Under the pieces are notes generated by a model, which was not told where the DNA came from, did no database searches, and worked only from the letters and a program-made list of their open reading frames with translations. Of a DNA stretch of 64,000 bases, positions 8,611-52,500 are shown piece after piece; the first letter of the stretch is position 1; the number at the start of each line of letters is the position of its first letter. The stretch spans positions 5,451,709-5,515,708 of the forward strand of contig CAJINV010000002.1 in the NCBI GenBank assembly GCA_905178155.1, in the 5' to 3' direction. A program made the position numbers and the translations under genes. Source of the stretch: Amoebophrya sp. A120 (Eukaryota; Protista; Dinoflagellata).

Positions 8611-10164
8611 ATGGGGGGCATGGGCGACTTTATTGTGGACGACGAGGTGGAGGATGTTGGTAAAGACAAACCGAGGGACACCAAGGCTTACAACGCAGAA
8701 GGTCCGGCGAAAAATTGGAGGGCCTGCAACAAGTGTCGACTTTTACTGACGATGGAGCAGTTCATGCGATTGGGCTGCCCAAACTGCCCAGAACTGCTTT
8801 TCACCGAAGAGGAAGCAGAGTACACCAAAGAGAAAACCACCGACGAGTATTGATAATTCTGCAGATATTTATTTTCCACCGCATTTTTCCCATCAGGGAT
8901 TCCAGGTGATGAACATGTGTAACTGAACTACATGATGTGTACTCCAGCACCTGTCCTTTTACTATATGTGTCATCGTTCCCAACATGAAATAAAATTAGT
9001 TCCCAACATCGTTCCCAATTATGTGTCATCGTTCCCAACATGAGGGGAGGCTTAGATCTGCGAGACGCTCAGCGAAGTTTTAAGCACTACTGAAAAAGAC
9101 TGAGTCTAGAGATCGGGTAAGGTTAAATGTTTACCCTGCAGTTCCTGTAATAGCATCGACCAAAAAGTATAAATAAGCCAGTTCAACAACCACAGTGCCT
9201 GTCCTTTTTTCACTTTTTCTTATCGCTTTTGTCTAGTTACACTAATTTTCTACCGCCGCTTTCGAGCGAGCATTCATGAACACTCTTTCGAGTGCTTCTT
9301 GAAATACTACTTGACTTGACTTGAACACTTCCAGGTGGTCCGGCATGCTCTCGCACCTGAACCAGGGCGGATGGTTGAAGCGGGCCGTGCAGATTCCCGC
9401 CTTTTACGCCTACGGGAACTACGCAATACAGATTACCCCAAAGGAGGACTTCAGTGCGTCGAAGAAGCAATTTGGAAAGCCAAAGCAGTACGAGCTCCCC
9501 ACGGACATCGAGCGGGAGCAGAGAATAAGAAACACGAACCCCAAGCCCTCGCCGGTCGCGCAGCCGCTCCAATATCCGGGGGCCGCATCCGCCAGTGGAG
9601 CAGGAAAAATCTCCGCCGCAAGAGTCGCAGTAGACGTGCAGCATATGAATTGCAAAAATGTCTTGGTCTGGCAGGTTGGAACTTGTGATGCTTCCTTTGG
9701 ACTCTCAAAAAAATTGTATTGCATGAACAGCAAGAGGAGTCTAGTTTGTGCTACGCGGGGAGGGCATTTGTCATGCGGAGTAGGCATCAGGAAGCCCTCT
9801 AAAAATCTGTGATGCTAGGTCGTGCATTACAGATATCCTGGATCATGCAAAAGATGCATAACAAACCCGGCAACATTCCAGAGCCAGACACTTTTGCATT
9901 TGATACAGCAGCAGCAGCAGGGGGACGAGGAGGAAGATGACCTCATGGAAGAAAGTATCACAGGAAAAAGCGTTAACGTTAACGGAATTTGTAATGCAGT
10001 AATGCATCGCAAAACGTGCCCAGATTTGTCATGCATAGCATGCATGCTAGGCACAATTTGTCATGCATACTTGCAATCCAGGAAAACCGTTAACGTTAAC
10101 ACTTTTTTGTTTGATAGAAAGCGGTGCGAATCGGAGCACCGGGGGAGTCTTCGACTTGTACTAG
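8611..10164 (+). CDS. SPT4: Transcription elongation factor SPT4 (DSIF subunit); exons 8611-8846, 9335-9643, 9911-9955, 10122-10164
   Basis: RACNKCRLL...F...GCPNC zinc ribbon, then T..EWSGM...W......GNYAIQI, matching the SPT4 pattern. One GT-AG intron (8847-9334) and two introners. Confidence 0.88.
8966..9043. repeat. Short local repeats (TATGTGTCATCGTTCCCAACATGA x2 plus partial copies) in the SPT4 canonical intron
   Basis: GTTCCCAA occurs four times within 80 bp. Confidence 0.8.
9644..9905. mobile_element. Introner family A (forward orientation)
   Basis: Ends TATGAATTGCAAAAATGTCTTGGTCTGG / CCAGAGCCAGACACTTTTGCATTTGATA. TSD CAGCA. Frame restored. Confidence 0.9.
9956..10116. mobile_element. 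Introner family C
   Basis: Ends TATCACAGGAAAAAGCGTTAACGTTAACGG / CCGTTAACGTTAACACTTTTTTGTTTGATA. TSD GAAAG. Confidence 0.88.
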
Positions 10165-14001: not shown

Positions 14002-14069
14002 TGTCCTTGTTTATTTTCTTTCTACATCAAGCTGTCGCTATTTGGTGATACTAGAATCTTCGTTGCAAA

Positions 14070-16988: not shown

Positions 16989-19900
16989 ATGGCGGGCAAA
17001 ACGAAAAAGAAGGCGAACAAGCAGAGGGCCGCCTCGCTGGCCAAGAAAAACCAGGAACAGGCCCAAGGACACCGCAAGCAAGACGAGGCCGAGTACGCCA
17101 AGAAGTCGGGCGCAACAAGGTTCAAATCTTTCCACGAGCGGGTGCGGAGCAGCAACGTGCAAACGACGCGGGAGTTCCTGGAGAGTACTTTTGCCAAGCA
17201 GGCGCACGAGGCCAAGCAGCACTGGGGCCCGAGCACACGAGTCTTTCACGTCAGGAATGCAGAAGACGACGCAGACGGTGGCGTGGGCGAGGAGTTATTC
17301 GATACTGATCAAGTAGACGACGATGGGAACAATTTTACGACACTGCCAGAACCCGCCGGCGGCTACACAAGTAGGGCAGGAGGACCACACGTGGATTATT
17401 TGCACAATGATAAAGAAGACCCGCTCGATATTACTACCCCAGAAGGGAAGAAGATCACTATCGAGCGGATCCTGGAGGCCGAAACGCACTTTGCGGAGAC
17501 GCTGCAGCGCTATGCCTTCAGCTGTCGAGTGTTGAAATGGTCGAAGATTGTGTCGCGGATCAGGCGGATACTGTGCGTGAACAATGGCCAGCAGGATAAA
17601 AACGAGAGAACATCCAACAAACTGGTGACGGGGTCCCTGCCGCAGCTGCTGCTCATGCAGAAGGAGCTGGTGGAAGCCATTCTTGGCTTCGACGAGCCAG
17701 TAGTTTCCCTACAAGAGACGAAAAATGCCACCTCGAATTCTTGTGGGTCAAAAAACTATGAGCATTTAGAGCCTGTTTGTCGGTTACTCTCCGCGTTGAC
17801 GCAGGACCTGCGACAGGATTTTCTCGCCTCCGGCTCCTTTCTGAAGTGTCTGGAGAAGCTGATGCCACTGTCCGTCGTTATCACGCAGAGTTTTTCCAAC
17901 CATGAAACCGAGTCGGCGGCCACGGCGATCGCGGAAATCTTCCGCTTCTGCAACAGCGGATTCAAGTACCTGCATAAAGGGATCGACATGCGGTCGCTAG
18001 TGGATGTTGCACAAGTAGAAGAACCAATTTGCAGTGGTGCAGGAAAAAATAAATCGAGTGAGGTAGAAGAAGATGGAGCTAAAGCAGAAGTACAACAAGA
18101 TCCGAAGAATGAGACCCCGCCCCGTTCATCCCAGTCATTTTCCGCCCTACTCCAAGCCTGTCTCCCGGCAATGAAGACCGCGATGCTGCGACAGCCCTTG
18201 GGCGAGTGTTTCGCTTTGCTGATCACGAAGAAAATGGCTAATTATGCAGCGAACCGTGTCGCCGACGAGGAAGCCGAGAGCGGCAGCTTCGTCACGACCA
18301 TGTGTGGCCACTTTGCGGCGCTTCTGCGGAAGCAGCAGCAGACGCTTGGCCGGCAGGTAGACAAAACGAATCACGTGATCGTCGACACACTGTCTATCGC
18401 CTTTTTCGAGTCTGCTCGCTCCGTCGACGGCCAATTCCGGTTGCAGGCGCAAATGTTGTTGCGGGAATTGGTAGAGGGGATGAAGACGTCGAAGGGCAGC
18501 TTCACCACCAAGAAGATGGTGGACGAGGACGACAACACTTCCTTACAAGAAACCACCCGAAAGTCCCTGCAATTTTACGTGGCCAAAATCCTGATCCAGC
18601 GCTTTTTTGAGTACAGCGAGGCAAGTTTTTTCTCCACGGACAGCGACGCGTCGCCGCTTGGCGCAGAGCTAGTGGCGGCGGTTTTTGAAGATGGCGAGGG
18701 AGAAAATAGCGATGCTCCTAATGATAAACCTGACTCCAAACTCCTGTTATGGTTCTTGGACACGATTCAGGCGTGCTACCGTAGTTTCTTCACTAAGGGC
18801 AAATATGCAGACGGGAAGAAAGTACCGAAAGAAGCACGGAGATTCCTCGCGGAAGTAGCGCAAAAGTGCGGGAAGGCGATTTTTTCGAATGGAATGTCCG
18901 CGGTCGCGTCCGCTTCCAACAGAAGTTTTCCTGCCGACGCTATGGACGTGGAGGACTTGGTCGATGACAGTAGAAATCGAAACGATATTGCAGAAGAAGA
19001 AGAAGATCTTCGCTGGGCCTTGCACTATCCACCAAAGGGGCTCGTGCCTCTCTGTGAAGATGCAGACAGCCGAAACGAAGAGGACCCACTTCCTTACTTC
19101 GAGCGTAGCCTGAGGTCCACCCATTTTCCGAAATTTCTGATCCGCTCGCTCTTCTACGGCTTCGGCGCCGAAATCGACGAAGTCCTAGTGCCTTCCCTTA
19201 AGACAAAACAAACCGCGGTTAGGTTCATCCAGTTGATGCAAGAAGAAATGGAATTTGAGAGGGAGCAAGGCTCTGGTACCGCCTTCCAGCGGCTGTTCGT
19301 CTCGCCCGATGCTGGCAAGACGTCGAAGTTCCAGGAATTCCTCCCTCTAACCCAGACGCGAACCGGGCGGACCGTGCTCAGCAAGTGCGTGTTGCTTATT
19401 TTAGCGACCGTTGGTCGGGCACCAGCAGAGGGAGAGCGAGCGTCTTGTGGTCCCTTGTTGAGCCACACCGACTACAACTGCCTGCTGTTCTGCCTGCAAA
19501 ATCTCGCGCTGACCATGCCGGTGGTTGCAAGGAGTGAGGGACTGTCAAAGGAAGACCTGGGTGGGGGTCTCGACGTGGGCCAGAGAATCGTCGTGGATGC
19601 CTTGGACAAGTTTATGCGGACGAATTACACGTCGCTATCCGGGTCGAAAACCGGGACGAGTTCTGCTTTTGAGGTACCTGGAGATGTATCCACGACGACG
19701 TCCTCGCGGAGCAACCTGCACTACGAGTGCTACTTGCTATACAAAAAGCACTTTGCCGCGTTCTCTACTGCCTCCTGCAATAGCGTCCTCGACAGCGAGC
19801 AGGACCGTACCAAAGCAAACGTTTTCTGGACCGAGTTTGTATCCTGTGCAAAAGTATCGTACTCGTACAAATGCAAGTCTTGCATTACAAATCTTGTTTC

Positions 19901-22900
19901 CAAGGGAAATCTGCATTACAAATTTTATTTCTCATGCTGAGGAAATTTGTAATGCATTTATACGAGTACGATACTTTTGCACAGGATAGTTTGAAGCCAG
20001 CGACTACAAAAACACACTGTTTCTCGAGCTGTGCCTGGTTTCCTGTGCCTCGCTATCCGGAATAAAGGGGGAAGAAAATGACTTGAAGGAGGGCAAAACC
20101 AGAAAGCAAGAAGACGCGATGTTTTTCTCCAAAGTGGTCAGGCAGGTCGTGGAGAATGGTGGTGGGCCGCTTCTGTTGACAGGTTGGGGTGCTAAACAAT
20201 CTTCATCATCAAGAACAGCGACATCTGAAGAACTGGACAGCCGGCAAGAAGACACTCCTTCACCCGAGGAAGAAGCAAACACCACGTTGGCGTTGAATTT
20301 AGAGGCCGTTGCGGCCTTTTTGGAAAACAATAGCGAACCTGTTTCTCGCGGCTGCTTGCTAGCTACTTGCGAACTAAATCGTGGTGAGGAAGAAACAGAA
20401 CAGTTCTACACCAGCCTGCTTCTCCTACTGAACCACCAAGACGCTCGGGTAAGGTGGTGCACGTTGCGAATCCTCAGGCAGCTTATCAAATGTAAAAATG
20501 TCTGGGTCTGGAAGAATGCATGTTTGTCATGCTTGTCTGGCATGAGTCTTAAATCTGTCATGCACGTTGCCCAAGAGCCGCATTTTTCTGTCATTCGGAG
20601 ACGCAGTTTGTCATGCAGAATAGGCAACACCTACAAGCTCAGAAATTTGTCATGCTGAGCCAGCACTTGTGGCCTCATCATGAGATGCCACTCAGCATCA
20701 CAAGTTTCCAGACCCAGACATTTTTACATTTGATACAGCTGCCGGTGCAGCAAATCGCGAGGGAATGCCAATTTGATCTCTCGGAGCCGGTTCTTGCATC
20801 ATCAACGCCCACCGGTGCAGCAACTACAGCAGCCTCTAAACAACCCAAGAATGTTATGATCAAGATGTTGGACCACGACGTCGCAAGCGCAACGGAGAAC
20901 AAACAAAAAGCAAGCCCCGCTAGAACATCAACAAGTAGCGGCCACGAGGAGGAGCTGCAGGACCAAATCGAATTTCTCGTGCACACGTGCTACGAGTTGG
21001 AACAAGCAGAATTCTGTTTGGAGCAGGAGCGTTTCAAGGTGGCAAAGATTTCTTCCATCGTGGAACAGGTGTTGGCTTTGGTGAATGACAGCACGACGAA
21101 AACCACGACCGCAAGAAGTAGAACTTCTTCTCTGCCCCTAGCCGTCGTCTTCGCGGTTCAGGTTCTGCTTTCTCAGTTGAAGAACCGGTTTTCCCCGCTT
21201 TGGAAACCCACGAAGGAAGCGCTGGCGCAACTGGCGAACTGCTCTTGTGAAACGGATAATTTTTCTGGAAAAAATGCAGGAAGTTGTGACAGCCACGCAG
21301 GAGCCGGTCGCGCCATTACACTCCGACACTGCGTCCACACACTGCTGCAGACCACTATTATGGCAGCCTTTGCGGAGCGGAAGCGAGAGCTCATTGATGC
21401 AGAGGACGCATCCTCGCCGGCAGCATTCGCTGTGACAGCAGATCATGCTGAAACCCAAGAACCTAAGAAACCGGTTGTACTAGACGAGTTGAAAAACGAC
21501 GACGCAGAGATAGAAAAGCTGCCGGGCGAAGATATGCAAAAGAACGCAAGTAAAGAGGGCAAGAGCAAAGGCACGGGTAAAAATAACAAGCACGACGCGA
21601 ACAAGCAGACCTCCAGGCATACTTCGAATGGATCGAAGAAAAACAAGGACATTCGCTACGTGGACCTGGAACAGGTCTTCGCCAGCAGTGAAAGCTTTTT
21701 CGCAACAAGAACAGCAGCGGGAGCAGGAGTCCAAGGTACTGCTAATAACGAGGGCGCAGATGAAAACGCCAGCGGTTCTTGTGCCGCGTCACACCAACTT
21801 TTCCTCGCTCCCTTCTGGAGGTCCGGCTCGGAACACGAAATCGGGGGGCAGACCTACCACGACCTGGTCTGGCAAACCGCGACGCGAGTTCTGGTTGAAA
21901 GCGGGGCGGACGATGCTGAGCATCGTGCTGGAACAAGCGACGGTCCGACCAAGATGTCGGTTGCAGGAGCTGATATGACGCTCGTCGGTGAAGCCGACCT
22001 AGCGAGTGTGGAGAGCAGAAAAGAGCTTGACGACGCACAACGACTTCTCTCCAGTCTCGATACCTTCAAATTGTGGGTTTTGCAGAAAAACGTCGAGTAT
22101 CTGAACACCTTCTGGAAGATCGGGACCAAGTCCAAAGTTCTGTGCAAACACGCCCTGCAGCCCATCGCGGAGTGCCTCGCGCCGAATCTAGCGCATTTGA
22201 AGAGCAAGGCGGATGGGGTTCAGGAGCAGGGCAAAAAGAATCCGCCTTCTGCTACCACCTCTCTGGAAACGTACTACGGGATTAAGGGCGGCAGTGAATC
22301 AACTGCTAGTGTCGGATCGAGGGAAAAGGATGTAGAGTCTTCTTCAACCACTGCTGAAAGAAAGCAACTGATCGCCGACCTGCTGTTCGCCCTGGAACAC
22401 TTTCTTCTCCCGTCCGAGGACAGCAGCACGCAGCAGCTGGCCCTGCGGATCCTGCAAACGTCCGAACGGTTCTGGTTTCTGCAAAACTACAGCGAGAATC
22501 TTACCAGACTAACCGACGACAAGAAGTTCCGCCAGGAGCTGACAGCGATCACGTTGGACGAGAGTATTTTGACGGAAAGCGAGAAGCAGAAGGGGGCCCA
22601 CAACGGGGTAAACAGGAAGCTTTTCCCGAACCCGAAGCATCGGAAGCAGATTCTCCCGATTTTGCTAAAATTATTATACGCGAAAATCGTGAAGAAATCC
22701 CGCGCCTTGGACAAGCACAGCAACACGGAGGGCCGAAGGCGCGCGGTCTTTCAGCTGCTCAGCGAGGGGTTCAAGAACAGTCGGGAGGGGAGTGCGGAGT
22801 TGGCGGAGTTTCTGTTGGTGCTGATGAACGGACTGCTCACAGTTGTAAGGCGGGAAGGGGAGGAAAATGACGATGTATCAACTGTAAAAATGTCTGGGTC

Positions 22901-25900
22901 TGGAAGATTCTGACACTTGTCCTGCACGTTTTGCATGAGCCATGATGCCTGTGATCCATACCCTAGCAATACAGATTTTTGAGGGCTTCTTGATGCCTAT
23001 TCCGCATGACAACTGCCTCCTCAGCGTAGCAAAAATTGCCTACTACTACTACTACTACTATAGCGTAGCAAAAATTGCATTCCCTTTGGTACTCATGCAA
23101 GACAGATTTTTTTGGAATCCAAACGCAGCATCACAAGTTGCATTCTTCCAGACCCAGACATTTTTACATTTGATACGATGTCGATGTTGACATCTTCCGC
23201 TCTGCTCGGAACGCGAACCAAATCCGCGCGCAGCGGTTGCAGTTGAGCACGTTGCGGAAATTTCTGACGGAATACTGCTGCGCCAATTTTTCCACGTCTA
23301 CTACTGCGTCGAGGACTACAACTGCACAAGTTCTTATGCCACACAGAACGCAGCAATGCGGCGAAACGAAGCGGATCCTCTTCCTGATGAACACTTGTGA
23401 TTCATCTCCCTCCGCTGCAAGAACAGAAACGAGTAGTAAAGGAACAGTAGAAAGTCCTCTCATCATCTCGCTGGACCTGGATTTCCAAAACCGTTACCAA
23501 CCCTTCCTGATGACGCTGCAGGACGTGGTGAACCAGATGTGGCGCGTGATCGGCACCAACTGCGCCGGCTTTTTCACGGACTTGGTCCTCAGCATCTTGG
23601 CGCAGACCCAACTGGCGCAAAAGTGCTTTGAGGAAGTGGAGAAGAGTAATTACACTGGTGCGGCTGCAGGTGCAGGAGCTTCTGGTCTACTGATCGAAGA
23701 CCCGGATGACAAAAATGATGACCAGCAGCGGGAAGAGCAACAAGTCGCTATTCATCTACAACTTCCCAGCAAAAGATTATCGCATTTCGCAGACAAAGAC
23801 CGCACGCTCGTGCGGCTCTGTTTGTCTCGGCTGCACGATGTACTGGCCAAGTTGTACAACAATCAGAGTGACCTCGACCACCAGAACCAGCTCCACGAAA
23901 CCCTTGACGCGCAGCTGAGCTTTCTTTACCCGGTGTTCAACCACCTTGCGAAAGAGCTCCCGCTCGGGGGCGGAGCGGTGGACCTCTCCGCGTTTGGCAA
24001 ACTGCTGGCCATGATCGGGTCGAACCCGAATTTGTGGCGCATTTTCGAAAAATTCCCCTTCTTCCTGACCAACTGGTTCAAGGTGTTGAGCTCCAGGCCC
24101 GTCATGGCCAAGATCGCGAACCATGGCGCACATCAAGGCGGAGATGGTCCAAAATCATCTGCTTCCAATACGCCTTCCGGCGGTCTTGTGGTGGAGAAAG
24201 TAGTCGAAACCGGGCTCCGGCTGTGCAACGCGGGAATTTTAATGACAACTGCGAAGGAGAAGAAAGCGTTTACCTACGCGGGCCACGAGAACCAACGACG
24301 GTTTGGGAACAAGAAAATTGACCACGACGAGACTAAAGTGCAAGCGAAACTGAACCAATTTGGTGGAGCAGATGACAGTGATAACGACGTGGATCATATG
24401 GAACAACGAGATCATCATGGTCGTCGTGTTTCTGGTCGTTGTACTACGGGAGAAGATGTTGATCTGGAAGAAAGTTCCCTCGCCCTTCTCGGCGTCCGGT
24501 CTCCCGAAGAGGAAGAGTTGTTCCAAAGGCAGAAGCAACTCGGCCTCTCCTTGATCAAGCCGCACGTCGACCTGATCTGCGACGGTTTGCTGCAGTTGCT
24601 CAGCCAGCGCAAGGAGTACGGAAGCAGTGTACTACTAGTCTCCAGCGGGAACAACAAGAACTTTCACACCGCGGGTAGTACAACTCCGAACAACTACCGG
24701 AGTCATGGTTATTTCGACAGCACCAAGATCGTCACGCCGGCCGAACTGCAGCTGATTTTCCAGCTCACGGACCTTTTCCAGCTGGAAAACGTCGAAACGG
24801 CCAAGAAACTCTGCCTGCTGCTCGTCCAAGCGCTGTTTGATTGCGGTCTAGCCAAAGACCACAAGAATACCGTCGAAATTCTAGACGCGCTGGAGAAACT
24901 GGTCTCGAACGTGATCGTTGTTGTGCGAACGAGAACTGCTGCAGCTTCTTCCTCCTGTGACGAGAAAGAAAACGACGACACTGCGTCCTTCTTGCGCGAG
25001 ATTTTCGCAAAGCTGGAAATTCTAGTGGGCGCCATGCGGGACTTGATGAGCCGGCAGAAGTTGTGTCAGCTGCTCTTGGTTTTGGCAGAAGGAGGTTCTT
25101 GTGTCGGAACACCTCGGAATGATGATGAAAATCATTTCAAACCAGAAAATAACCAGAAAAAGACCGAGAAGAAAAAGAAACGCAGTGAAGAAATCGGTCG
25201 CGCTTCTGATAGTACAAACCGCATCAACCCCGTGACTTCATCTCCTCTCCTCGAGGGAGCGACAAACCGCCTCGAGTCCATCCTCCTGCACCACCGCCGC
25301 TTGCAAACAAAGGACCCCAGTCGTTCCGACGAGATTCAACTAGATTGCTACGCTGCCGTGAAGGATTGGGTTTTCGAGTTCGAACATGATTCCAAAACAG
25401 AACCGCAAGAACTCCTAAGCTTAGTACAAGCAAAAACATCAAACACGGTCACCGCGGCCCGCGCTCTCCTGGCTTTGAATTGGACGAAACGGCAGGCAAC
25501 CGTCGAGCCCGATTACGACCTGCACTGCGAAATTTTGGTAGCGCTGAAACAGAGGAAGGTGCTGCTTGTGACCACGACGGGAAGCACATCAAGTTCAACG
25601 GCTGGGAATAGCCCTTCTTTCAATAACTGTGTCGACCATTTAAAGCCGTTATTCGCGCATTTCTGCTTCATCCTGTCGCAGCCCGCGTGCGACCACGCGG
25701 TTCGCACGGAAATCGAACACCTTTACGAACAGTTTGCGGTTGAGGCGGTGGTGCCGTTTGTGAGGAGGGAAACTGATTCATCAGAAGTGAAGATGGAGGA
25801 CATCGACATGGAAAAAAAATCGGGAGCAAATGATTATACAAACTCAGCGACAACTGGTACATTAGCATCAGCAAAACCCAGGAGCTGCACAAGAACTCCT

Positions 25901-28900
25901 CTTCTTGAACTCCTCTTCAAGCACGCGCTGCCTCCCGTTCGGAAAAACTTGACGAACCTGGCTCAGACCTCCCCGGCGGTGGTAGATTCCGCAGTTAGGA
26001 TTTTCCGGGCCTTCTTCCTCGCGGTAAAGGAGAGCGGACTCGCGGAACAAACCGATGCGGTTTTGATGAAATTGGCACGACATCAGGAAGAAACGGAAAT
26101 ATCTTCGAGCTCCCTGAAATACCACGTCCTCGGGCTGCTGATCGATTTCCACCGCGCGCGGGGAAACTTTGTGGCGAAGCAAGTGCGGGATCAGGAACAA
26201 CACTCCTACCCCGCCCACCTCAGTTCCTTCGACCACTTTCTCCTTTTCCGCGAAGGTGTGCAAAGTGGGTTGATTCATGCAGACAAAGTTTTCACTGACG
26301 AAGAAACGCAGAAAGAGCTGGAAAGGCTTTTCTCAAACGGAGAAAAGTCGTCCCATACTCTCCTTCTTGACCTGGATAGCCCTGCGGCGAACTTTCTGCA
26401 CCTCGACTTGATCACGTTTTTCCCCAGCACCTCGCAAGAAGGCGACATCTTCGAAAACCTGATCCACCTGCAGAAGCACCGGCGCGCCCGCGCGCTGCAG
26501 CAGTTGGCGAGTAAGGCCGAGGAGAAACAGCTGAAGAAGTCCACGCTGCTGAATCTGTGCGTGCCGCTAGCTTCGATCGCGATTTTGCAGAAGCAGGCGA
26601 CAAAAGAGAGCTTTGACATTGGGTACGCGGACGTCAGCTTGAAACTACTTTCGAATTGCTTCAAAAACTCCGGGAGGTCCTGTTGGAACAAAATTTTGGA
26701 GCAGATTAAGTTCTTCGCAAAATCGCTGAAGGACTTCAACGACAAAGTGCACGAGCGGTACTTGATCCGGGGTGTTGTCGCGTGTCTGAATTCGTACCAG
26801 TTTCAAGAAGAGGGAAGCAAGAAAAATAGCGGAGCTAGTTCATCTTCAACATCCAGTTTGTTTGAATCGGCGAAGGCACTGACCGCGGAGGAGGTGGTGG
26901 CGAAATGTGCTGGTGACAGAGGTAGCAGTGCCGATGGAGGTGCAGCGACGGGACTAGACAAGCCGGCAACAGGTGTTGAAGCTGCTCCTGCTGCAAAAGA
27001 AGGTGATGTGGCTGCCACAGCTGACGCTTCTACTGCTCCTGCTGCCGAAGAACTAGAGGAACAAGCAGATACAGATCATCCCCTCGATCATGTTGAACAA
27101 GTAGAGCTGCAAGAACAGCCGGCCCCGCCGACGGAGGAGCAACGGAAAGTTGCAGCCTCGCTCAAGAAGCAGGTGCTGCCCATTCTGAAAAAGCTGCTGT
27201 TCGACAAATCCAAAGCCGACGACGCAGGGTCGAACAAGAACAACTCGGGCACCAGCGCGGCAGGAGGAAAGAACGCATCCTCGGCCGGCAGTAAGCACCC
27301 GCCGCTCGGCCAGGTTCGACTCCCGGTTGTGGGGTGTTTGATGCACGTACTTCCCTATCTGGCAGAGCGGGACTTTTACGAGGAGCTGCCGCGACTCATC
27401 CGGCAGCTGTGCGACAACTTGCGATCCCGGCAGTTGGATCTCCGGATCGCCGCCCGGTCCGCGCTGCAGCAGTGCTGTTTGGCCCTGGGACCGAGCTGGT
27501 TCCTCTACATCGTGCAACAACTGCAAACCTGCTTGAATAAAGGCGGGTATCAACAGGCGGTGTTGGTTTTTTCCGTGCACAACGCGCTGCACGCCGTGGT
27601 GGAAGCGTTTTATCTTCACGGCAACAAGAATGACGACGAACACGAAGCGAGGGCTGAGCATCACCCTCTGGACGCGTGCCTCCCGGAGTTGCGATCCTTG
27701 ATCACTGAGGAACTCAACCGCATGGCGGAACCTGACAACGGCGACGAGGGCCAGCACGACGTGGAGAGTGCGCACCGGAAAAATCTGTGCCTGGAAGCGA
27801 AGAAGGTCAAGGGCCCGGAGATTCTGAAGCTGATTTGCTCGGTTGCGACGGTCGAGAACTGCCTGGAAGAAGTCGTCGAAGAGTTGTACAAGTTACTCTC
27901 CGCAGAAACCTTCGCGGACCGGAACCTCGGTGTGCAGGAGATGTCAATCGGCCGCGCGTATTCGGTGAAGTACTTAAACCGGGTCAAGGAACTGCTGTAC
28001 GCTAGTGTGCAGGGCCTGATGAAAAACAAACAATTTACGGTGCAGCACCAGTTGGAAGTGTGTGGCACGAGCCTGTCCCGCTGCAGCGAGCTGATGCAGA
28101 ATAGTAATTCCACTAACCGTGCTCTTTCGTCTACAACCGGCGGAAGAACAGGCGCTAGCTCCACTGCGATGCTGACCAACGGCGATGATCTCTCTTTAGC
28201 CCCGGCCGACCAGGAACAAGCAACGGTGTCGACCTTGTTCAATTTCAAAAAGGAGAACTGCTACTCTGTGCAGCCGGGCGCGGCCCGAGGCAACCAGGAG
28301 TGGAAGATCGCCAAGAGTCGCAAGGGCTTCGACGCCACGGCGCGGGCCGAAATTTTTGGCGCCACGGGGCTGCGGTTGCTGACGCACTTGCTGAAAACGA
28401 CGGCCGGCGGGGAAATGCTCAGTTTGGCAGCTGGCGGTGCAATCGCTACTACATCGCAAATAACGGACGTTGATGGTGATGAAGAAGAACTACAACTACA
28501 CCAGTCTACTGAACGAGATCATCAGCGACACCAAAAAACAAGAACCGTTTGCCGCCAGCTTTTGAAGGACAACATCCTTCCGCATCTGATCCACACCTGC
28601 TTTACCGGCAAGCAGGACAGTCTGTTTCACGCGTCCGCGAAGTGTCTGCACAAACTGCAGCCGTATTTGGACGACGACTTTGACGACAAGTACGCGAAAA
28701 TCATCGCGAACCAAATCCTGAAGACCTTCCAGCACGCCGGCGTGCAGCAGGAACTGTCGATCCGGTTGCGCAAGAAGCGCGCCCACTTCATCGACGTGAT
28801 TCCCTGCGTCACGCAATTGCTATCTGCGTTGCTCGCGAAGAACCGGTATGCATAGCAAAAATGTCTGGGTCTGGAAGATTGCAACTTGCAATGCTGTCTT

Positions 28901-31900
28901 TCGATTCTAAAAAAATCTGTATTGCATGACCGGCAACGGGACTCCAGTTTGTGTTACGCGAAGAGGGCATTTCTGATGCAGAATAGGCATTAGGAAGCCC
29001 TCTAAAAATCTGTGTTGCTAGATCATGCATTAGAGGCATCAATCATCATACAAAATATGCATGACAACCTTGCATCCTTCCAGACCCCGACACTTTTACA
29101 TTTGATAACCGTTCCGCCAAGTGGTTTCTCGAGGCGCTTCTAGACGACAGCTACCTGGACGAAGAGCAGCTGCAGGCCGCCAAAAGGCGGAGGTTGGCGA
29201 CCTTTAGCGCGATTGAGGACTTGAGCGAGAGAACAAACAGTTCGACGTGTTATGCTGGTTCTTCTACTGATTTGCTCTCCTCAAATAGCAGCGCAACGTC
29301 GAGCAAGCGAAAGCAGAAGCAAAACCAGTTTGGGGCCGCCCCCGCGCAGGGCAAAAACTCCAGCTCGTCGAAGAACAAACACAACGACACTACAGCCCAC
29401 AGCTACTTTTTCGAGGCGCTCATCGCCCAGATTTCCGCGAGTCTGGACCAGGCGAAGCTCCGGTCTTCCGCGCTGCAACTTTTGAAACGCGTGCTCAAAC
29501 GAACCACCGCCGGCTTGAAACAGCTCCCCATCGTGTACCAGCTTTTGGACAGCATCGGGGAGATTGTGTGCAACGGGGTCGTGTCCGACGGCTCCAACCA
29601 GGACCTGACGGCGCAGCTCGCGGGGCAATTGTACGTCGACTTCTTACTGGATTTCGAGCACGAGAAGGTCGGGCTGAACAAACGCATTCAAAAACTCGTC
29701 GCGGCCGTCAGTGCCGGGACGTCGACGTCGAGTGGTCTTAACAGCTCCGACTTCTTAAACAGCAAGCTTGCCGGTACGAAGTCGTCGTTGAATTGTTTGA
29801 ACAGCTTAACGCAGCAACTCCCTGAGCATTTGTTGCACGAATTCTCGACCCTCTTCTTCCTCACCGCCACGGCAAGATTGAACACGGAAAAAGACGTAAA
29901 ACTGCGGGAGATGCTGAAGTTTTTCGTGCAAAATCTGGTGAAAAGAATCGGCGCGGACAACCGGAAGCAATTGCTAGATTTGATGTTGGAGTATGTCAAC
30001 ACGATTCCGAAGATCATCCCCGCGTTTGCCGAAGTGATCGGCGCGTTCAGAGTAGTCGCGGCTGGTAGTGCTGTTAATATTGACAGCACTGGACGAAGGA
30101 ACAAGAAGAACAAGCTGTCGGAAGAGCAGCGGGTATCTCTGTTATCGTTGCGAAATCTCGCGACCTTTCTGTCCCACAACGCGACTTCGGCAACGAATTT
30201 CCGCACAAAGTCCAAAATCATGTACAGTGTCGCGCTTGGGTTCCAGGAGCTGGTGGCGAATTCGTATAGTGCTAATATGTCGGGGGCATCGGCCTCTAAT
30301 AGCGAGGAAAAAACCCTAATAAATCCCGTCACGTTCCTCTCCCTGGTGGCCGCGCAGGACGAAACCAATTCGCTCTACTACAGGGAGCTCTCCGCGACGT
30401 TGCTCTCCCCAGAGGCAATTTCCATTTCGGACGAGGTGTTGTGTGATGATGATGCCGACGAGAAAATGGGAACCGTCACCGCTGTAGAGCAACAACAGCA
30501 CGCTGCTCGGAAGCAACTTCTCCTCGAGGTCGATCCGGAAGTGAAGCCGTGGATTTCGGCCTGTGCGCTGCGGTTGATCGGAAGCAGTGAAGTGTTCTTG
30601 CAGGAGCATTTGGACTTGCACGAGCAGAATCACGATATTGATTCCTCCACGCTTCTGAGTTGGAAAGACGCGATTTCGAAACTGATGCTGGACCAAAATT
30701 TGGAGCAAAACTTCAATTCTACTTTGGTGGCGGTCAAAGCGCTGATTCGCGTGGTATTCTGCATGCAGAAGAATGGGACGGCGTGGGAGACACAGTATCA
30801 GCGGTTGCTTGGAAACAGCAAAAATGCGAAACCGGAAGGGGAAGATATTGATGGTGAAGAAGCAGTGGATGGTGCAACGGCTGCCAACGATGACGATGCA
30901 GCCGCCCTTGAGGATGATATGCTGGATGATGATATGGAAGTGGAACACGAGCAAGGGCTTGTTCCTGCGGAGGACGCAGTGGTAGAAGATCAAGCCACCA
31001 ACGAAAATAGAGACACTGCACGGGATCTGGATGCCGAAGGGGCGGACGCAGAAATTGCAGCAGACAACAAGTCTAGCTCCGATTTCGACGAAAACGAATC
31101 TGACGTCGATCAGGACGAAGATTTGGAAGCCCAGCTCTTAGAAGACGACGACGTCGACGTCGCGAACTGCCTGCTGCTACGACAGAACAATAATGGAGAA
31201 GATGCACCAGCGAAGTTGGAGCAATTGTACCATCGGGACGAGGAGGATCTTGCTTGCAGCACGCAAAGAAATAAAGAACGACATCTCGCTACGCATACTA
31301 CTGGTACAACTTCCCCGACCTTCCTCCTCCTCATCCAGAAGACCTGCAGCCACTTCTCCTACAAGGCAAGGTGCTTTCTCAAAGAGACCCGAAAGCACGC
31401 CTTCCGTCTCACGGCAATCCTCCGGTTCTTCGGACACCTGAGCGCCATGGCGGATCTAGAAACCGTGTTGGCCGATAAGAAGGTTTTGCACGCGATTTTG
31501 AGCCTCTTGATGCGGGTGAGCAAGTTCTGCGAACAGGATCTGCTGCAAATCAGCAGTCAAATCGGGACGAGTGGAGGTACTGAAAGTGACTTAGTTTATT
31601 TTTCATGCGTTCGCTTTTTTATTTTTTTTTCTATCATCTTCGTACGTAGCTTTATTCTCCTTGCTCCTCTTCGGGAGGTTCGGGCAAGGCCAAGAATCGA
31701 GCACCTACTTAGCGCTAGACTTCGCGTTTTTTTCGCCTGCTTTTCGTATTCGTTTCACCCGTTGTAGTGCAGCTAGAACTGCCTGAAACAGATGCTACTT
31801 GCATCTAGATGAAAATCATAGGCGCAAAATAAATCAAAATTACGTAACCACTTCCAACAATCCTCGATGAAAATCCACACACAGGCGTCCGTCGCCCGGG

Positions 31901-32273
31901 CAAAGTGACCGCTCCCGACCAGGACCAGCAACTGAAAGCTGCGGTGACGATGGAGGAACTGGCGCGTCAGTCGGAGAATGGTGTGAAATTCACGCTGGGT
32001 ACCTGGGCGAGTGAGGCGATGGAGATGATTACCAAGAGGTTCGCCGACGCGGGGGAGTTGGATCCCAACCTGAAACACCTGTTCGAGCAGGAGAAGCAAA
32101 AGGTGCAAAAACTCGTGCAGGACCGCAAGTTCAAGCGAAAACTCGCGCAAACCGCCTCGAAGGTGGCGAAACCGGAGATCGCCGCGGCAAGACGGGTGAA
32201 GAAGAACAAGACCAAACGGGTAAACAGGAAAGAGAAAAAGAACCAAGCACTGAAATTGCTGAAGAAAAGATAA
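16989..32273 (+). CDS. UTP20: U3 snoRNA-associated protein 20 (SSU processome HEAT-repeat protein), ~4,664 aa; exons 16989-19839, 19994-20483, 20741-22875, 23181-28846, 29113-31576, 31885-32273
   Basis: N-terminal RFKSFHERV, internal LPRLIRQLCDNLRSRQ..RIAARSAL...LG...GGYQQAVLVFSVHNAL, C-terminal VAKPEIAAARRVKKNKTKRVNRK. Joined exons total 13,995 nt with no internal stop. Four introners and one GT-AG intron (31577-31884). Confidence 0.9.
19840..19988. mobile_element. Introner family B
   Basis: Near-perfect ~35-bp TIR TATCCTGTGCAAAAGTATCGTACTCGTA(C/T)AAATGC. TSD GTTTG. Confidence 0.95.
20484..20735. mobile_element. Introner family A
   Basis: Perfect 30-bp TIR TATCAAATGTAAAAATGTCTGGGTCTGGAA. 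TSD CAGCT. Frame restored. Confidence 0.95.
22876..23175. mobile_element. Introner family A (reverse orientation) with internal (TAC)n expansion
   Basis: Family A TIR, TSD CGATG. Interior is the reverse complement of the 28847 copy. Confidence 0.95.
28847..29107. mobile_element. Introner family A (forward)
   Basis: Family A TIR with mismatches, TSD ACCGG/ACCGT. Frame restored. Confidence 0.92.
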
Positions 32274-33065
32274 AGCTTCATCTTGGCTCCATCTGTGTGC
32301 TGGCGGTGCGAGAAGTAGATGAACCAGGGCGCTTGCGCTCCTATCTTGAACGCGAACTTTACGATTATCATTCTGATTTTACATGCAAAGTTACAGGAGA
32401 GGAACATGCGTTATGTGATGTGGTTAACATACTGCGTCAAATGACAACACGTGTCTTTGTCGCTCCTGTGCTTCGACAGCAGCACCGGTGACGTTCTCAA
32501 TGAAGGTGCAATCCTTGTTCTGGGATTGTTGAGGTCGCTGAAAGACAAGTTCCACGAACAACGCGCTCGGCTTGTGTCTGAGGACACAGATCTTGCAGAT
32601 GTCGATCTCCACGCTTGGTCTGTAGTTAGATCCAAAAATATCCATCGTGATGTGAGGATCTTCAGCAGTGCCACTAAGCATCAACAAGATCATGAAGACG
32701 GTTGTTGTTCCCGAACTCAGGTCTTCGAACTGAAAATCAAAACCCGTGGCGGTCCTCGGCTGTGATTGAGGTCGTGGCGCGAGATCTCTTGTTGATCTGC
32801 TACCAATCCTGGTACATAGCGCATGTCTGTGTGCTCCATCTTCTGTAAATGCTTTTCATTAACTTCTTGCCACCAGGTGAAGTAGCACTGGGGCGTTGGC
32901 AAGCTCGCGCAAAAAAAAGAATATGTTTACCGCATTATAGGCACCATTTCATAATTCTTGCACTTCATCGACGATGCTAAGAAGTAGTTGCTGAAGTAGA
33001 AAGATAGTGTGTCCCCTCCCTCGTCTAACATATCTAAGAGCCTGTTGTACATTAGAACAATAAAC

Positions 33066-35893: not shown

Positions 35894-38502
35894 ATGTTGA
35901 TCTCTACAAGGAAAGCGCAGCAGCAGTTCACGCAGGAGCCGCTCTCGCCGAGCCGGTTGCACCGCAAGAAGCAGCATTCCTACAAGGGTTGGTGCGAGCG
36001 GTGCCGCACCGTGCACGACTGGCGCAGCGGGGAAAACGTGACCAAGGCGTGCATTCCGCCCCTGCACGTCACGGAATTGTTCGACGAGCGAAGGGAGGAG
36101 GTGGTGAAGGTGCCCAAGGTATGTTCATGAATCTTGCAAGACGCTTATTTTGTTCAAGGTGACCATCATGATCATGCGTACAACTACAGGCTGAAGGCTG
36201 AGAAAAAAAATGATGCATCTGATATACTGTGTAAAAGTAGTACTATCTACTTCCACCGACCGAACATCTGCGACCTTCTACCGGACTACCGACATCAAAT
36301 CGTAACCCCTGGACCTTTTCAGGATTACCGTGCCGCGCTGTACGCCTACGAAGGCGCTGGTGGCTACTACACCCTGGAGGGCGTTCTGGACACGTTTTTC
36401 GGCAAGAACCCGCATTTTCCGGGCTACAGCGTGTGGCTCCGGGATGTGAACGAGGAAACCCCCGAGCCGAGTAGCGAAGAGGACGAGGACGGGAGCGAGG
36501 AGACGGGTTCGAATACTCCTACGGGCTTTGAGGAAAATGATAATCCGGTGCACCGGGGCGAAAATTTTGTGACCAAGACCGGTCGTGAAGATCATGCTAC
36601 AACAACAGGAGGTGAATCCAGTCCAACCAAAGGGGGTCAACTTCTGCTCAAGGGCATGGTGGCGGAGGACGATCGCTTTTTCCGGTTGTTAAAGCGCAAC
36701 CGCACGTGCTTCGTATGCATTGCAGGAAATATCTCTGGGGTTGAAAGAATGCAAGGGTCGTTTGTCATGCAACGCTGCGAAAGCGACATTTTTCTGATAT
36801 GCACTAAGAAATAGGGGAATAGAGTGGACATCACCGCCTAGGAATTCAAGAAGTTGTATATGTACAAATATCTATGTGCTTGGCGGCCGACGGACAAATG
36901 AGGCGCTGTCGTGATTCTTCAATGAGCGTAATCACAAGTTTCTTCTTCTTCTAGACCCGGATTTATATTTGCAAGGCATACTTTGGCACGCGAAACAACG
37001 CGACCACCCGAAAGCGGTCCAACTCCCGGTCGCCGAAAAAAGCGGGCTCGCCGAACAAGACCGGCGGAACTACTACTCACTACAACCCGCTGAACCCGGA
37101 GTCGAACCCGGCCACCCTTATTTCCGAGCAGGACATATGGGGTTCTCAAACGTTACATTCAAAGAGTACCTAAATCTGTGCGAAATTTGTAATGCTAAAT
37201 GTGCAGCCTCCCCCCTTTGACTATTGCTATTCTTGCATTACAAATTCGTGTAACAGTTGAGAATGTAACAGTTGAGAATGCCATAGGACATCTACAGGAA
37301 GTGGGACAACGAAAAGGGCTTCCGGATTCCGGAAAAGCTGGTGCAGAAAACCGTCATGCTGGAGGCGGAGAACACCATCGAAAAACAGCACTCCCTGGTG
37401 CGCAACTTACGCATTGCAAATAAATATGTCTGGGTCCGGAAGGTTGCAACTTGTCATGCTGAATCTGAATCATGCAAAAACTCTGCGTAGCATGATTAGC
37501 AACAGCCGTCCTTTTTTACCACGTTGAGAGAGAATTTCTCATGCAGGATAGGCATGATAGAGATCATCTCACAGAATTTGCCATGCTAGGTGCTGCATTT
37601 CAGGCCTCATGGGTAATGGAAAACCTGCATGACAAATAATCTGGCAACATCCTTCCAGATCCAGACCCAGACATATTTGCATTGGATACAACTCCTTCGT
37701 GTACAACGAGTACGACGCCGTATCCTGGCCCTTGACTTTCTTTTTCGGTACGGTGCTGCCGAACACCCGGAAAGAGATCGTGGAGATGAACCAAAAAGCG
37801 AAAAACCTCTCCGTGCCACCCACTGCATCTCCGGGCGGTGACAATAACAACGACCAGACCACAAACGAGGAGGACAAAAAGTTCGAAGAGCCGGAGCAGG
37901 CGTTTTTCGATTCCGACCTGTGGAAGCGGTTCGTGAACCAGTACAAGCCCGGCAGAACAACGTCGACAACCGGAGCAGGAGGTACTAAAAATACGTCGAA
38001 GAACGAGGACACTTCTACCCGCCCCCTCCTGCAGATGAAACTGCTGCCGTCGTTTCTGACCAACCCGAAGGAGCGGAAAAACCGGGAGGACGCGCAGTTC
38101 GCGAAGTTTGCGGCGCAGCTGCAGCGGGTCTACGAGGTGAAAATGGAACAATTCCTGTCGCCGTCGGACGAACAGGAAGCTGGTACAACTACATCAACAA
38201 GTGACGGAGCGAAAGAGGAACAAGCCGATCGAGAGACCCCGTCCTCGGGAGCAGCACAAAATGTTGAGCAACAAGAAACTACGGAGGAAGTACAACAAGA
38301 TCAAGACGCGACATCCTCTGCGCCCGCGTCCGCCACCCGGGTGCACATCCTCCCGCCGCTGAAGGAGTGCGATGCGAAGATGCGCCGGGCACGGAAGAAA
38401 ATGCAGGCGGATGACCGGTGTTTCAAGCCGTACGAAGGAAACAACAACTCGATGAATTACGACGACGAATTTTTCGTTTACGCCAGGTGGGCAAAGTTCT
38501 AG
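35894..38502 (+). CDS. Hypothetical protein; exons ~35894-36118, ~36197-36713, 36986-37135, 37291-37407, 37694-38502
   Basis: GC3-rich segments join in frame across three introners. The acceptor of the first (GT-AG) intron is uncertain. N-terminal CxxC..H motif. No family recognised. Confidence 0.7.
36714..36980. mobile_element. Introner (degenerate, A-related)
   Basis: Ends TATGCATTGCAGGAAATATCTCTGGG / CCCGGATTTATATTTGCAAGGCATA. TSD CTTCG/CTTTG. Confidence 0.8.
37136..37285. mobile_element. Introner family D
   Basis: Ends TATGGGGTTCTCAAACGTTACATTC / GAATGTAACAGTTGAGAATGCCATA. TSD GGACA. Confidence 0.88.
37408..37688. mobile_element. Introner family A (forward)
   Basis: AAATATGTCTGGGTCCGGAAGG / CCAGACCCAGACATATTTGCATTGGATA. 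TSD CAACT. Confidence 0.9.
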
Positions 38503-49589: not shown

Positions 49590-52500
49590 ATGATGATGAA
49601 GATGAATGCCCCGCCAGTACTAGAAGATGCTGAAGACGAACAACCTCGACACCTCCAAGCGGGATTGCTCCAGCGCCTAACGAACAAAATGACAGCGACC
49701 TCCACCCCGGCGAAACTCACCCCACAACCGACCCCAGCCGCGGACTCTGCCGGCGCGGGGGGCAGTGGTTCCATTTTTTCGTGGTCCCCAGGTAGAAACA
49801 AGAACACTTTCACTAGTGAAAGAACGCCTAGAAGTGCAGCTGGCAAAAGAACCCTCTTCGGCCGCAACTCCAACAACTTGCCAGGAGCTGCTGCTGCTGA
49901 TCTTCTTCCCAGCGCTTCTTGTAATTCTATCGCGGACCGAGAACAACAAGACCGAGACCCTCATGCATCTCCAGGTCACGACCCTCTTCACGCTGCTGGC
50001 CCGCGTGACCACAGCAGCCCCAGTTTTTGCCGGCGTCGGTTCTCGGGGGCTGGGTTGGAAGCTACTTCCACCGTGAAAAAGAAGATGATCAGCCGGAACA
50101 AGATGTCTACTAGTTCAGGTTCCCCAGCATCGAACAAGATGAAGAGGAGGGCAAGTAGATTCACGGCGTTTGGTGCAGCTGGAAAAAGACTACTTGGTGC
50201 CGTATCAAATGTAAAAATGTCTGGGTCTGGAAGATTCTGAGACTTGTCGTGCATGTTTTGCCTGGGCTATGATGTCTGTGATGCATGCCCTAGCATCACA
50301 GATTTTTTGAGGGCTTCGCGATGCCTATTGCGCATGACAAATGCCCTCTCCGCGTAGAAGAAATTGCACTCTCTTTGCTGCTCATGCAATACAGATTTTT
50401 TAATTTTTTGGAATCCAAATTCAGCATCACGAGTTGCATTCTTCGAGACCCAGAGACTTTTACATTTGATATGCCGGAATAACGAGCAATAGTAATGAAG
50501 AACAGGACAGTGACAAAGAAGATGAAGATGTGGATGACGTCAGCAGCCGCGGGAGTAGTTCTTGCTGTAGTGAAGATGATCTGCAACTTCACGAAGATGA
50601 TGAGGAGCGAGGCAACTCCACAAAAAGCCCCCCTGCATCAAAATTTTGGTTCTTCTCCCTCTTTGGAAACATGTTTCCTTTTCAACAGACGAAGAACAGC
50701 AACCGGAAAGAAGGTGACCGGCACGACGCGAACGTCGAAAAGCTAGTCTGCGAAGACGTGAAAAGTGATGCGAAGTTGGAAAACGGTTTTGGAGAAGGAG
50801 ATCTCCTTAGAAGTAAAAATATGGACGACGACGTCCGCAACCACGAGGACCACATTGAAGGTCGCGACTACAACAGCATTCATGGACAAGCCGATATTAT
50901 CACAGAGGACGACTCGTCTTCGTCAGAAATGAAACAAGAAGACCTGCAAATCCTGATGTACAACCACTATCCAAAGAAGTCCTGGGGCGCCTATGCGCTG
51001 GCGCAACTCCAGAAGCCGCGCCTTTCCCGTCGCTTGGATGTGTTTACGACGAGTAGTACTTCTCCTTCTCCAGATGCGGTGGACCTGAACCCCCACGTCG
51101 ACTTTTCTGACAATGACACCGGTACTAGCTGGAAGCCGGCGCCAGTACCAAAAGTAGAACATGGCACAGACCAGAAGAACTGGGGCGCGTGGCTGCTCGG
51201 AACAAAAAAAGCGACGGAGGTTAAGAGAAAAGAGAAAATGATGAAGATTGCGGGAGATGAAACAGTTGTTGTTACCAGAACCGGTACAGATACGAAAGAT
51301 CAAAGGAAAGACTCAGTGGCCCGATTTGCTGGCCCGAAAGGAGTAGAAAACGACACGACCGTTCTTGGAGGGCCACTACTACAACACTCGGCAATTACTA
51401 CCACGCCTCTACTGCCGGTTCTTGTTCCCAGCAACAAGTCGCTGAAGGACAGCATGGTGCAGCGGCCTACCTTCCCGGGCTATCGCTCGACGTGCTCGGA
51501 GGACCATTCCGATGATTTCCCTTCCGAGGACGAGGAGGACTCCGACGTGGAAACCGACTCAGAAATTCTGGAAGAAATGCTTCTCGACTACGAAGACGAT
51601 GAAGCATGTGATTTAGGAACTGCAGGACTTCTCACTGACGAGGACTCGGATAGTTCCTCCAATCCAGACAGCGAGGGGGACCGTGAAGTCGAACAACAGG
51701 ACGACGACGGGGACGGAGCAACAGGCGCTACAAGGAAAAGCTCGTCCTGCTTCCGAGGTATGAACGAAACGTCGTCGTCAAAAACGGGTTCTTCAATATT
51801 CAAAAAATTCTCGAAAAGAAATACCGGCACAGCAATGATTAAGAAGTGGAAAACCTACCTCGCAAAACTGCTCACCCTGCAGTACTACCGAAGAAAGTGG
51901 AACTTTTTGAACAAGGTCTGCGCCGAAGTAGAATTCTTCTATCTGCAAGAAAAACACAACCTGGCTGCGGAGATGAAGACCGATAGTACCGACCAGATGA
52001 ACTTCGATTATTTGAATAAACGAGCGGGAACTACATCAACTTCTAAAAACACCCTGCGGGCCCCTGCTGTTGAAGAACAACATCTACTTTTTTGTGATCC
52101 AGAACGAGTCGTCGACGTTAACTCGCTGAGTTGCTTTGCCATTTGGCGGAAAATCTTATCCCGGCAGGTCCGGATAATGGGGGAGAGGCGGTACAACAAC
52201 CACAGTTACGCGCCTTTATTGCGGGAGAAGAACGACAGGACGAAGCAAGGGGCAGAAGCGTCCCGCGGCCCGCAGCAAGGCTGGGATGTTTCACTGTCAT
52301 CATCTTGTCGAAGTCTCGAGATGAAAAGAATGTGGCAGGAGCGGACGAGGCGGCTTTTGATGTGCATTCTGGTTTTTCTTTTTGTCGCGGTCGCGATTCT
52401 ATTGCTACTATTTCCCTCGTCCACGGCCGCTCCTCCAGTTGCGTTGGTCAAAGATGTGATGCTCACCAGCGTTCCCTCCCTCTACTCGCTGTTTTTGTCC

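What the first reader, a model, noticed from the sequence alone, without database searches (positions are those of the whole stretch)
22876..29107. Family A introners occur in both orientations within the same gene
Seen: the asymmetric interior (…TAGGCAT…GAAGCCCTCTAAAAATCTGTG.TGCTAG…) reads forward at 9644, 28847, 37408 and 63678, and as the reverse complement at 22876, 50203 and 57155. All host genes are on the + strand, and UTP20 carries both orientations. Inference: removal cannot depend on a strand-specific branch point or polypyrimidine tract in the interior. The signal must lie in the symmetric ~30-bp TIR or its hairpin, which is unlike normal spliceosomal recognition.
Basis: partly seen in the sequence, partly recalled or inferred. 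Interest (0 to 1): 0.8.

Follow-up and report, generated by a model that had tools for sequence, protein, structure and literature searches.

The report
Two-way transposon introns, fixed cut
These are short transposon copies sitting either way round inside protein-coding genes, likely the already published hairpin-ended introns of the marine parasite Amoebophrya, and they are likely cut out of the RNA at one fixed position set by their mirror-image ends instead of by the usual GT-AG signals.

Summary
Observation confirmed: seven 261-300-nt copies with ~30-nt terminal inverted repeats (TAT...ATA) and 5-nt target duplications, four forward and three reversed, all in + strand genes; UTP20 holds both. 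They match the published introners of Amoebophrya A120 (Farhat 2021; organism inferred from motif). Introners that work in both orientations are also published (Aureococcus, Polarella). Added here: five joints in probable-RNA contigs (one study) all fit one register, 1 nt before TAT and 4 nt after ATA; one joint is exact, two carry a caveat. In 173 copies from another assembly neither G at +1 nor a terminal AG exceeds background, and family A lies 59 forward to 41 reverse. No contig bridges a reverse copy alone; one lacks the reverse copy 57155 as part of a twin. The signal is likely in the symmetric ends and there is no AG. But a branch point and U-tract normally lie within those last ~40 nt, so spliceosomal removal is not excluded, and one old copy is cut exactly with no predicted hairpin. 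The scan noted the same register twice before on other DNA of this genome.

The parts
16989..32273 (+). UTP20 host gene; predicted 4,669-codon frame after removing four TAT..ATA elements (each plus 5 nt) and one canonical intron
   Evidence: Pfam UTP20_N and UTP20; no stop in the spliced frame; homologue P0002 matches both sides of 22876 in order
22876..23175 (-). Family A element, reverse orientation, TSD CGATG; predicted intron 22875-23179 (GT..AT); carries a ~39-nt internal insertion
   Evidence: retention gives a stop at 22911; no RNA contig bridged it
28847..29107 (+). Family A element, forward; absent with 5 flanking nt (266 nt) from a spliced contig; intron 28846-29111 under the common register (GT..CG)
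   Evidence: X1 record 5, contiguous in the record
20484..20735 (+).
19840..19988 (.). 149-nt element of another TAT..ATA family in UTP20
31577..31884 (+). Canonical GT-AG intron removed in the same contig as the 28847 element
9644..9905 (+). Family A element, forward, in the last coding part of a Spt4 gene
37408..37688 (+). Family A element, forward, in a 552-codon spliced frame with 36714 and 37136
63678..63939 (+). Family A element, forward; 85% complementary to 57155
50203..50471 (-). Family A element, reverse, splitting a 1,798-codon frame (49485-55152)
   Evidence: retention gives a stop at 50238; not bridged by RNA contigs
57155..57416 (-). Family A element, reverse, inserted 5 nt behind an older element (56898-57149); both missing from one contig (524 nt, 56897-57420)
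   Evidence: X2 joint 56896->57421, one contig, depth 5.5, flagged 'between: not known'
59331..59683 (.). Old TAT..ATA intron with no target duplication and no predicted terminal stem; cut unambiguously at 59330-59687 (AT..AT)
   Evidence: X2 record 12, contiguous, no shift possible
57875..58174 (.). Old TAT..ATA intron; joint compatible with the common register
   Evidence: 'between: not known'
60585..60733 (.). 149-nt TAT..ATA intron, removed with 5 nt in X2 and X4 contigs

Best explanation
These are non-autonomous TIR transposon copies with 5-nt target duplications that lie in coding sequence in either orientation, are missing from spliced contigs together with exactly five flanking bases, and are likely removed by the cell's own U2-type spliceosome reading their identical end motifs at a fixed register instead of GT and AG. 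Shown: anatomy, both orientations, removal of element plus 5 nt in probable-RNA contigs, no enrichment of G+1 or terminal AG. Inferred: one register (cut 1 nt before TAT and 4 nt after ATA) for all copies; that lone reverse copies are removed like forward ones; that TAT serves as positions +2 to +4 of a 5' splice site (N|TAT, like G|TAT) and the 3' arm supplies a U-run and branch A at a fixed distance from an AG-free 3' cut. Because 1+4 equals the 5-nt duplication, the original mRNA is restored at any insertion site, which would let the family spread freely through exons.
For: All five TAT..ATA joints are compatible with -1/+4 and no other single register; 59330-59687 is exact. The same contigs also lack five canonical GT-AG introns, and DNA-like run X5 has contigs running from exon into element ends. 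Farhat's Table S4 lists only NT donors as predominant in A120 and TT donors in A25, whose repeats start TTA, so T+2 and A+3 recur in two unrelated repeat families (inference); these are the most constrained spliceosomal donor positions (recalled). Farhat report 83 of 89 spliceosomal proteins and U2, U4, U5, U6 in A120. Precedent: Fritillaria MITE-derived non-GT-AG introns are ascribed to the U2 spliceosome. In loci L001-L131, 59 forward and 41 reverse of 127 family A copies could be called (p = 0.09); removal of element plus 5 was the best frame for 41 of 51 forward and 26 of 32 reverse copies, and retention gave a stop in 25 of those 26. One old copy is cut exactly without a predicted terminal stem.
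Against: No lariat, branch point or snRNA pairing was observed. G+1 (49 of 173, background 27%) and terminal AG (16 of 173, background 7%) show no selection, which is extreme for a spliceosome (recalled). [quoted passage not shown] Young copies fold into strong terminal stems in both orientations (z -8.6 and -5.7; mean pair probability of the first ten positions 0.58-0.97) that would hide both sites from snRNAs. The two arms are equally conserved in young copies, which transposase binding alone explains. RNA evidence is contigs of one sample whose RNA nature is a guess by the tool; two of five joints are flagged 'between: not known'; no contig bridges 22876, 50203 or 63678. Per-element strand calls lean to forward (57:33, 54:32, 45:22; 47:24). 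The frame test is partly circular, as host strand was chosen after removing element plus 5.
Confidence: 0.55

Rival explanations
1. A non-spliceosomal route removes them: an endonuclease recognises the terminal TAT/ATA stem, cuts with a fixed stagger (1 nt out on the 5' side, 4 nt out on the 3' side) and a ligase joins the exons, as proposed for euglenid nonconventional introns.
For: Fixed geometry relative to the stem with free end bases; equal folding of forward and reverse copies (MFE -0.391 and -0.393 kcal/mol per nt); U1 not found; euglenid introns pair positions +4 to +6 with -8 to -6 and leave as circles without lariat.
Against: 59331-59683 is cut exactly though its terminal pairing probability is 0.06 and it folds no better than shuffles (z -0.93); 28847 also has weak pairing of its first ten bases. 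T+2 and A+3 recur in both strains. No such nuclease was looked for or found here.
Confidence: 0.3
2. Orientation matters: reverse copies are spliced poorly or only with help from a neighbour, and are tolerated or on their way out.
For: No contig bridges a lone reverse copy; forward copies are 59-67% of calls in the other assembly; an orientation bias is reported for all two-way Polarella classes.
Against: Retention of 22876 would stop UTP20 at 22911, before its main conserved domain; 26 of 32 reverse copies sit in frames that stay open after removal; the 3' cut of the twin lies 4 nt behind the reverse copy 57155.
Confidence: 0.08
3. Each orientation uses its own ordinary or cryptic GT-AG sites near the ends.
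For: 10 of 21 window elements have G at +1; frame-keeping GY..AG options exist for 9644 and 57155.
Against: None exists for 22876, 28847, 37408, 50203, 63678 or 20484; none of the five joints ends in AG at the common register, and 59330-59687 is AT..AT; GT and AG together in 4 of 173 copies.
Confidence: 0.03
4. The joints come from DNA (empty alleles, somatic excision) or assembly, not from RNA processing.
For: The tool only guesses that X1-X4 are RNA; the joint table for DNA-like X5 was swamped (612 rows not shown) and the cross-run check was not given.
Against: The same contigs lack canonical GT-AG introns; the exact joint at 59330-59687 has no duplication to recombine on; X5 contigs run into the elements at even depth.
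Confidence: 0.04

Closest known systems
Introner elements of Amoebophrya sp. A120 (Farhat et al. 2021, PMC7789003; read: abstract, passages, sections 10, 11, 12, 16, supplement parts 1-2 of 5 and the Table S4 rows; figures not seen)
   Same: Inverted repeats starting TAT, seven variable bases, then at least AAA; 3-5-nt direct repeats (5 bp in the Fig. S19 legend); non-canonical ends; mixed with GT-AG introns; co-oriented genes. Almost certainly the same elements (organism inferred from motif, not by sequence match).
   Different: The text read does not treat element orientation and calls splice sites 'variable' relative to the hairpin (Fig. 3 legend); here the joints fit one register. Repeats here are ~30 nt against the 8-20 nt motifs reported.
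Two-way introners of Aureococcus anophagefferens and Polarella glacialis classes 2, 3, 6, 7, 8, 10 (Roy et al., bioRxiv 10.1101/2020.10.14.339549; passages only; supplements closed; the Aureococcus paper was not read)
   Same: TIR transposons with target duplications that make introns in either orientation.
   Different: They carry or recruit G[T/C/A] donors and AG acceptors from element or duplication; here neither G+1 nor AG is above background.
Non-GT-AG MITE-derived introns of Fritillaria borealis (via review PMC11282704, parts 1-3 of 5, and passages of PMC13326754)
   Same: Transposon-derived, TIR and TSD, non-canonical ends, ascribed to an altered U2 spliceosome.
   Different: Preferred ends (AG-AC, AG-AT) and a conserved U1 there; free end bases and no detected U1 in Amoebophrya.
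Euglenid and diplonemid nonconventional introns (PMC11282704; passages of PMC12621601)
   Same: Ends paired by inverted repeats at a fixed offset from the cuts; MITE origin proposed; no GT-AG.
   Different: Stem at +4/-6 with CAG/CTG there, +2/-5 with TAT/ATA here; circular excision products are reported for Euglena and untested here.

Membership tests
Amoebophrya A120 introner elements | IR starts TAT + 7 variable nt + at least AAA | tested here: met
   across 173 copies T1 and A2 fixed by the search, T3 in 169-173, A11-A13 in 158-168
Amoebophrya A120 introner elements | 3-5-nt direct repeat at the boundaries | tested here: met
   5-nt duplication at all seven named copies
Amoebophrya A120 introner elements | Removed from transcripts with non-canonical ends | tested here: met
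   five joints in contigs guessed to be RNA
Amoebophrya A120 introner elements | Window is from the A120 genome | not testable with these tools
   no genome held; inferred from motif only
MITE (non-autonomous TIR DNA transposon) | Short, TIRs, TSD, many dispersed copies, no transposase ORF | tested here: met
   (127 family A copies in 131 loci); 250-300 nt, too short for a transposase
MITE (non-autonomous TIR DNA transposon) | Cognate autonomous transposase and superfamily | not tested
   none seen in the window's Pfam scan; not searched elsewhere
Canonical U2 spliceosomal intron | GT (GC) donor and AG acceptor | tested here: not met
Canonical U2 spliceosomal intron | Branch point and lariat intermediate | not testable with these tools
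   only yUnAy matches at -7 and -14 in the 3' arm, short and not evidence of use
Euglenid-type nonconventional intron | Terminal stem at a fixed offset from the cuts | tested here: inconclusive
   met in young copies, not predicted for 59331
Euglenid-type nonconventional intron | Excised as full-length circular RNA without lariat | not testable with these tools
   only contigs mapped; raw reads X9 and X10 did not cover exons

The most novel reading that the evidence does not exclude
Amoebophrya has a second, non-spliceosomal mRNA splicing machine that reads transposon ends: it binds the TAT/ATA termini in either orientation, cuts 1 nt outside the 5' end and 4 nt outside the 3' end whatever the bases, and so undoes any insertion of these transposons at the RNA level, a general RNA-level antidote to a DNA transposon superfamily covering tens of thousands of introns.
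Probability: 0.3. Interest if true: 0.85.

Novelty: already known. Interest (0 to 1): 0.42.

Why it matters
The elements and their odd ends are published, and two-way introners are known, so the headline observation is expected. What it adds is a simple rule for a system described in print as having variable splice sites: one register, free end bases, either orientation. The rule would explain the NT-NN list in Farhat's Table S4, allow re-annotation of many thousands of junctions, and reduce an open question (how Amoebophrya removes over 60% of its introns without GT-AG or a detected U1) to one experiment: lariat or circle. Either answer matters: a spliceosome indifferent to G+1 and AG, or a second eukaryotic mRNA splicing route outside Euglenozoa. 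I did not find the register or the orientation analysis in searches, but that library lacks most subscription papers, and figures were not visible.

Tried and rejected
No whole genome held, so no genome-wide count. No RNA holder is on record; X1-X4 are guessed RNA. Including DNA-like X5 swamped the joint table, so only listed pieces could be used. Lack of cover at 22876, 50203 and 63678 says nothing either way. A search for full-length UTP20 homologues with lengths 'longer' found none; the representative search gave 16 distant homologues at 30-40% identity, too far to fix the junction to the residue. Rfam: no match in the window, so no snRNA to test pairing; the Amoebophrya snRNA alignments are images in the supplement and were not seen. 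A strand asymmetry between 5' and 3' arms, which would show splicing-specific selection, was not seen in young copies. The idea that the internal GCATBACA motif ~40 nt from the 3' end is a branch point was not supported: it is absent from the last 60 nt in 53 of 73 copies of other families and is more simply a subterminal transposase repeat. An alternative removal of element plus 2 nt (GT..AG using one duplicated base on each side) was considered and does not fit the contiguous joints. A - strand host for 9644 was considered and rejected on the Spt4 match.
Full report
Observation. The seven coordinates given are the first bases of 261-300-nt elements bounded by TA[T/C] and ATA, with ~30-nt terminal inverted repeats and a 5-nt target-site duplication. 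A strict search found 16 such elements in the window and 0, 0 and 1 in three block shuffles; a relaxed search and the RNA joints raise the working list to 21. Alignment and trimmed-interior identities confirm four forward copies (9644, 28847, 37408, 63678) and three reverse copies (22876, 50203, 57155): reverse copies reach 78-81% to the reverse complement of their best forward match and 53-61% in direct sense. The interior is only partly asymmetric, since an inward-facing TGTVAYGC repeat extends the symmetry to about 50 nt from each end; 41 of 51 window matches to that motif lie in the elements, which cover 7.8% of the window.

Host genes. Removing each element plus 5 nt joins long + strand frames. 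UTP20 (Pfam UTP20_N at E 6e-16 upstream of 22876, UTP20 at E 3e-34 downstream; human UTP20 at E 8e-13) becomes a 4,669-codon frame after removing 19840, 20484, reverse 22876, forward 28847 and one GT-AG intron. Retaining 22876 gives a stop at 22911. Homologue P0002 matches both sides of 22876 in order. A codon model trained on this window favours + at all 21 elements.

RNA evidence. No run is on record as RNA; X1-X4 are contigs that the tool guesses to be RNA, from one sample. I laid 4 runs on 19700-39699 (X1, X9, X10, X5) and 4 on 49300-64000 (X1-X4). An X1 contig skips 266 nt at forward 28847 and a GT-AG intron at 31577. X2 and X4 contigs skip four more TAT..ATA blocks and four GT-AG introns. 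Allowing for sliding, the 5' cut relative to TAT can be -6 to -1 (28847), -1 or 0 (twin 56898+57155), -2 to +1 (57875), exactly -1 (59331) and -5 to +1 (60585), always with element plus 5 removed. The only common register is 1 nt before TAT and 4 nt after ATA, giving ends GT..CG, GT..AT, AT..TG, AT..AT and AT..GA. Three joints are contiguous in their records; the twin and 57875 are flagged 'between: not known'. The reverse copy 57155 is missing only as part of the twin, in one contig at depth 5.5. No contig bridges 22876, 50203 or 63678. Raw runs X9 and X10 did not cover exons. DNA-like X5 has contigs running from exons into the element ends at even depth.

More copies. A scan of metagenome contigs with one TIR arm gave 131 loci, all with one contig-name prefix and not overlapping the window's exons. 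They hold 218 distinct elements, 127 of family A. Host strand was called with the codon model (100 of 111 within-locus pairs concordant); 173 of 218 could be oriented to the sense strand. Family A: 59 forward, 41 reverse, 27 not called (p = 0.09 against 1:1), with both orientations in 11 loci. Per-element calls lean more to forward (57:33, 54:32, 45:22; 47:24), so a mild bias is open. Removal of element plus 5 gave the best frame for 41 of 51 forward and 26 of 32 reverse copies with enough flank (Fisher p = 1); this test is partly circular. Under the -1/+4 register the first intron base is G in 49 of 173 (background 27%), the last two are AG in 16 of 173 (7%), both in 4. In the window itself the first base is G10, A7, T4, C0 of 21, against C in 40 of 173 (p = 0.009); this difference is unexplained.

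Structure. Forward and reverse copies fold equally well as RNA. But 59331-59683, cut exactly at -1/+4, has no duplication left, folds no better than shuffles (z -0.93) and has terminal pairing probability 0.06, so short end motifs may matter more than the long stem. The 3' arm offers a U-run and yUnAy matches at -7 and -14 in both orientations; these short matches are not evidence of use. The two arms are equally conserved in young copies.

Mechanism. Insertion duplicates five bases; cutting one base before and four bases after the element removes exactly one copy and restores the mRNA at any site (shown for the joints, inferred for the rest). Since both ends read the same on either strand, orientation need not matter. 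I favour a modified U2 spliceosome (0.55): the intron starts N-T-A-T, the published donors are NT in A120 and TT(A) in A25, most of the machinery is present, and Fritillaria is a precedent. A hairpin nuclease-ligase route as proposed for euglenids is the main rival (0.30), favoured by the free end bases and the missing U1. Neither was tested directly.

Comparison with what is known. Farhat et al. 2021 (PMC7789003) describe A120 introners with TAT + 7 nt + AAA repeats, 3-5-nt direct repeats and non-canonical ends, 29,850 copies; they call the splice sites variable relative to the hairpin, and the passages I read do not treat element orientation. Roy et al. (bioRxiv 10.1101/2020.10.14.339549, passages) report intron creation in either orientation in Polarella classes and cite the same for Aureococcus. 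Gozashti et al. 2022 and 2025 (passages) place Amoebophrya A120 among introner-rich genomes. Literature searches showed no paper stating the -1/+4 register; Farhat's figures, the preprint's supplements and subscription papers (Huff 2016, Henriet 2019, Roy 2023, Guminska 2021) were not seen and may hold it. Two unreviewed notes of this scan on other pieces of the same genome reach the same reading; I had written mine before the look-up, and they are not independent evidence.

Verdict. The elements are already known and two-way insertion is expected. The fixed register is a modest, testable addition. Interest 0.42.

Noticed in passing
window 56898-57416: Twin elements 5 nt apart: the reverse family A copy sits at the edge of an older element; one-step or two-step removal at -1/+4 gives the same joint. 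A frame-keeping GT..AG pair is available at 57155 but the listed joint does not end there.
   Followed up: partly
window 47760-49230 and 12974-14004: A different, longer repeat (88-91% identity) with inverted ends beginning TGGTAACCAAATG and 109-nt internal tandem units; it lies outside the long coding frames; the 12974 copy looks truncated and is flanked by a ~35-nt direct repeat.
   Followed up: no
window 23022-23078: The reverse copy 22876 carries an internal ~39-nt insertion: a duplicated ~19-nt stretch around a (CTA)n run.
   Followed up: no
window, 21 elements: First intron base is never C in the window (0 of 21) but is C in 40 of 173 copies from loci L001-L131.
   Followed up: partly
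loci L001-L131: The two arms of one element are often different variants of the family repeat (for example L011:1501-1764), suggesting arm exchange between copies.
   Followed up: no
window 31577-31884, 57688-57813, 58337-58552, 58794-59170, 60342-60501: All five canonical introns follow exonic AG and read AG|GT...CAG; no shared branch-point motif was obvious by eye.
   Followed up: no
window 33000-35180: Intronless JmjC-domain gene (Pfam PF02373) covered by one X1 contig.
   Followed up: no
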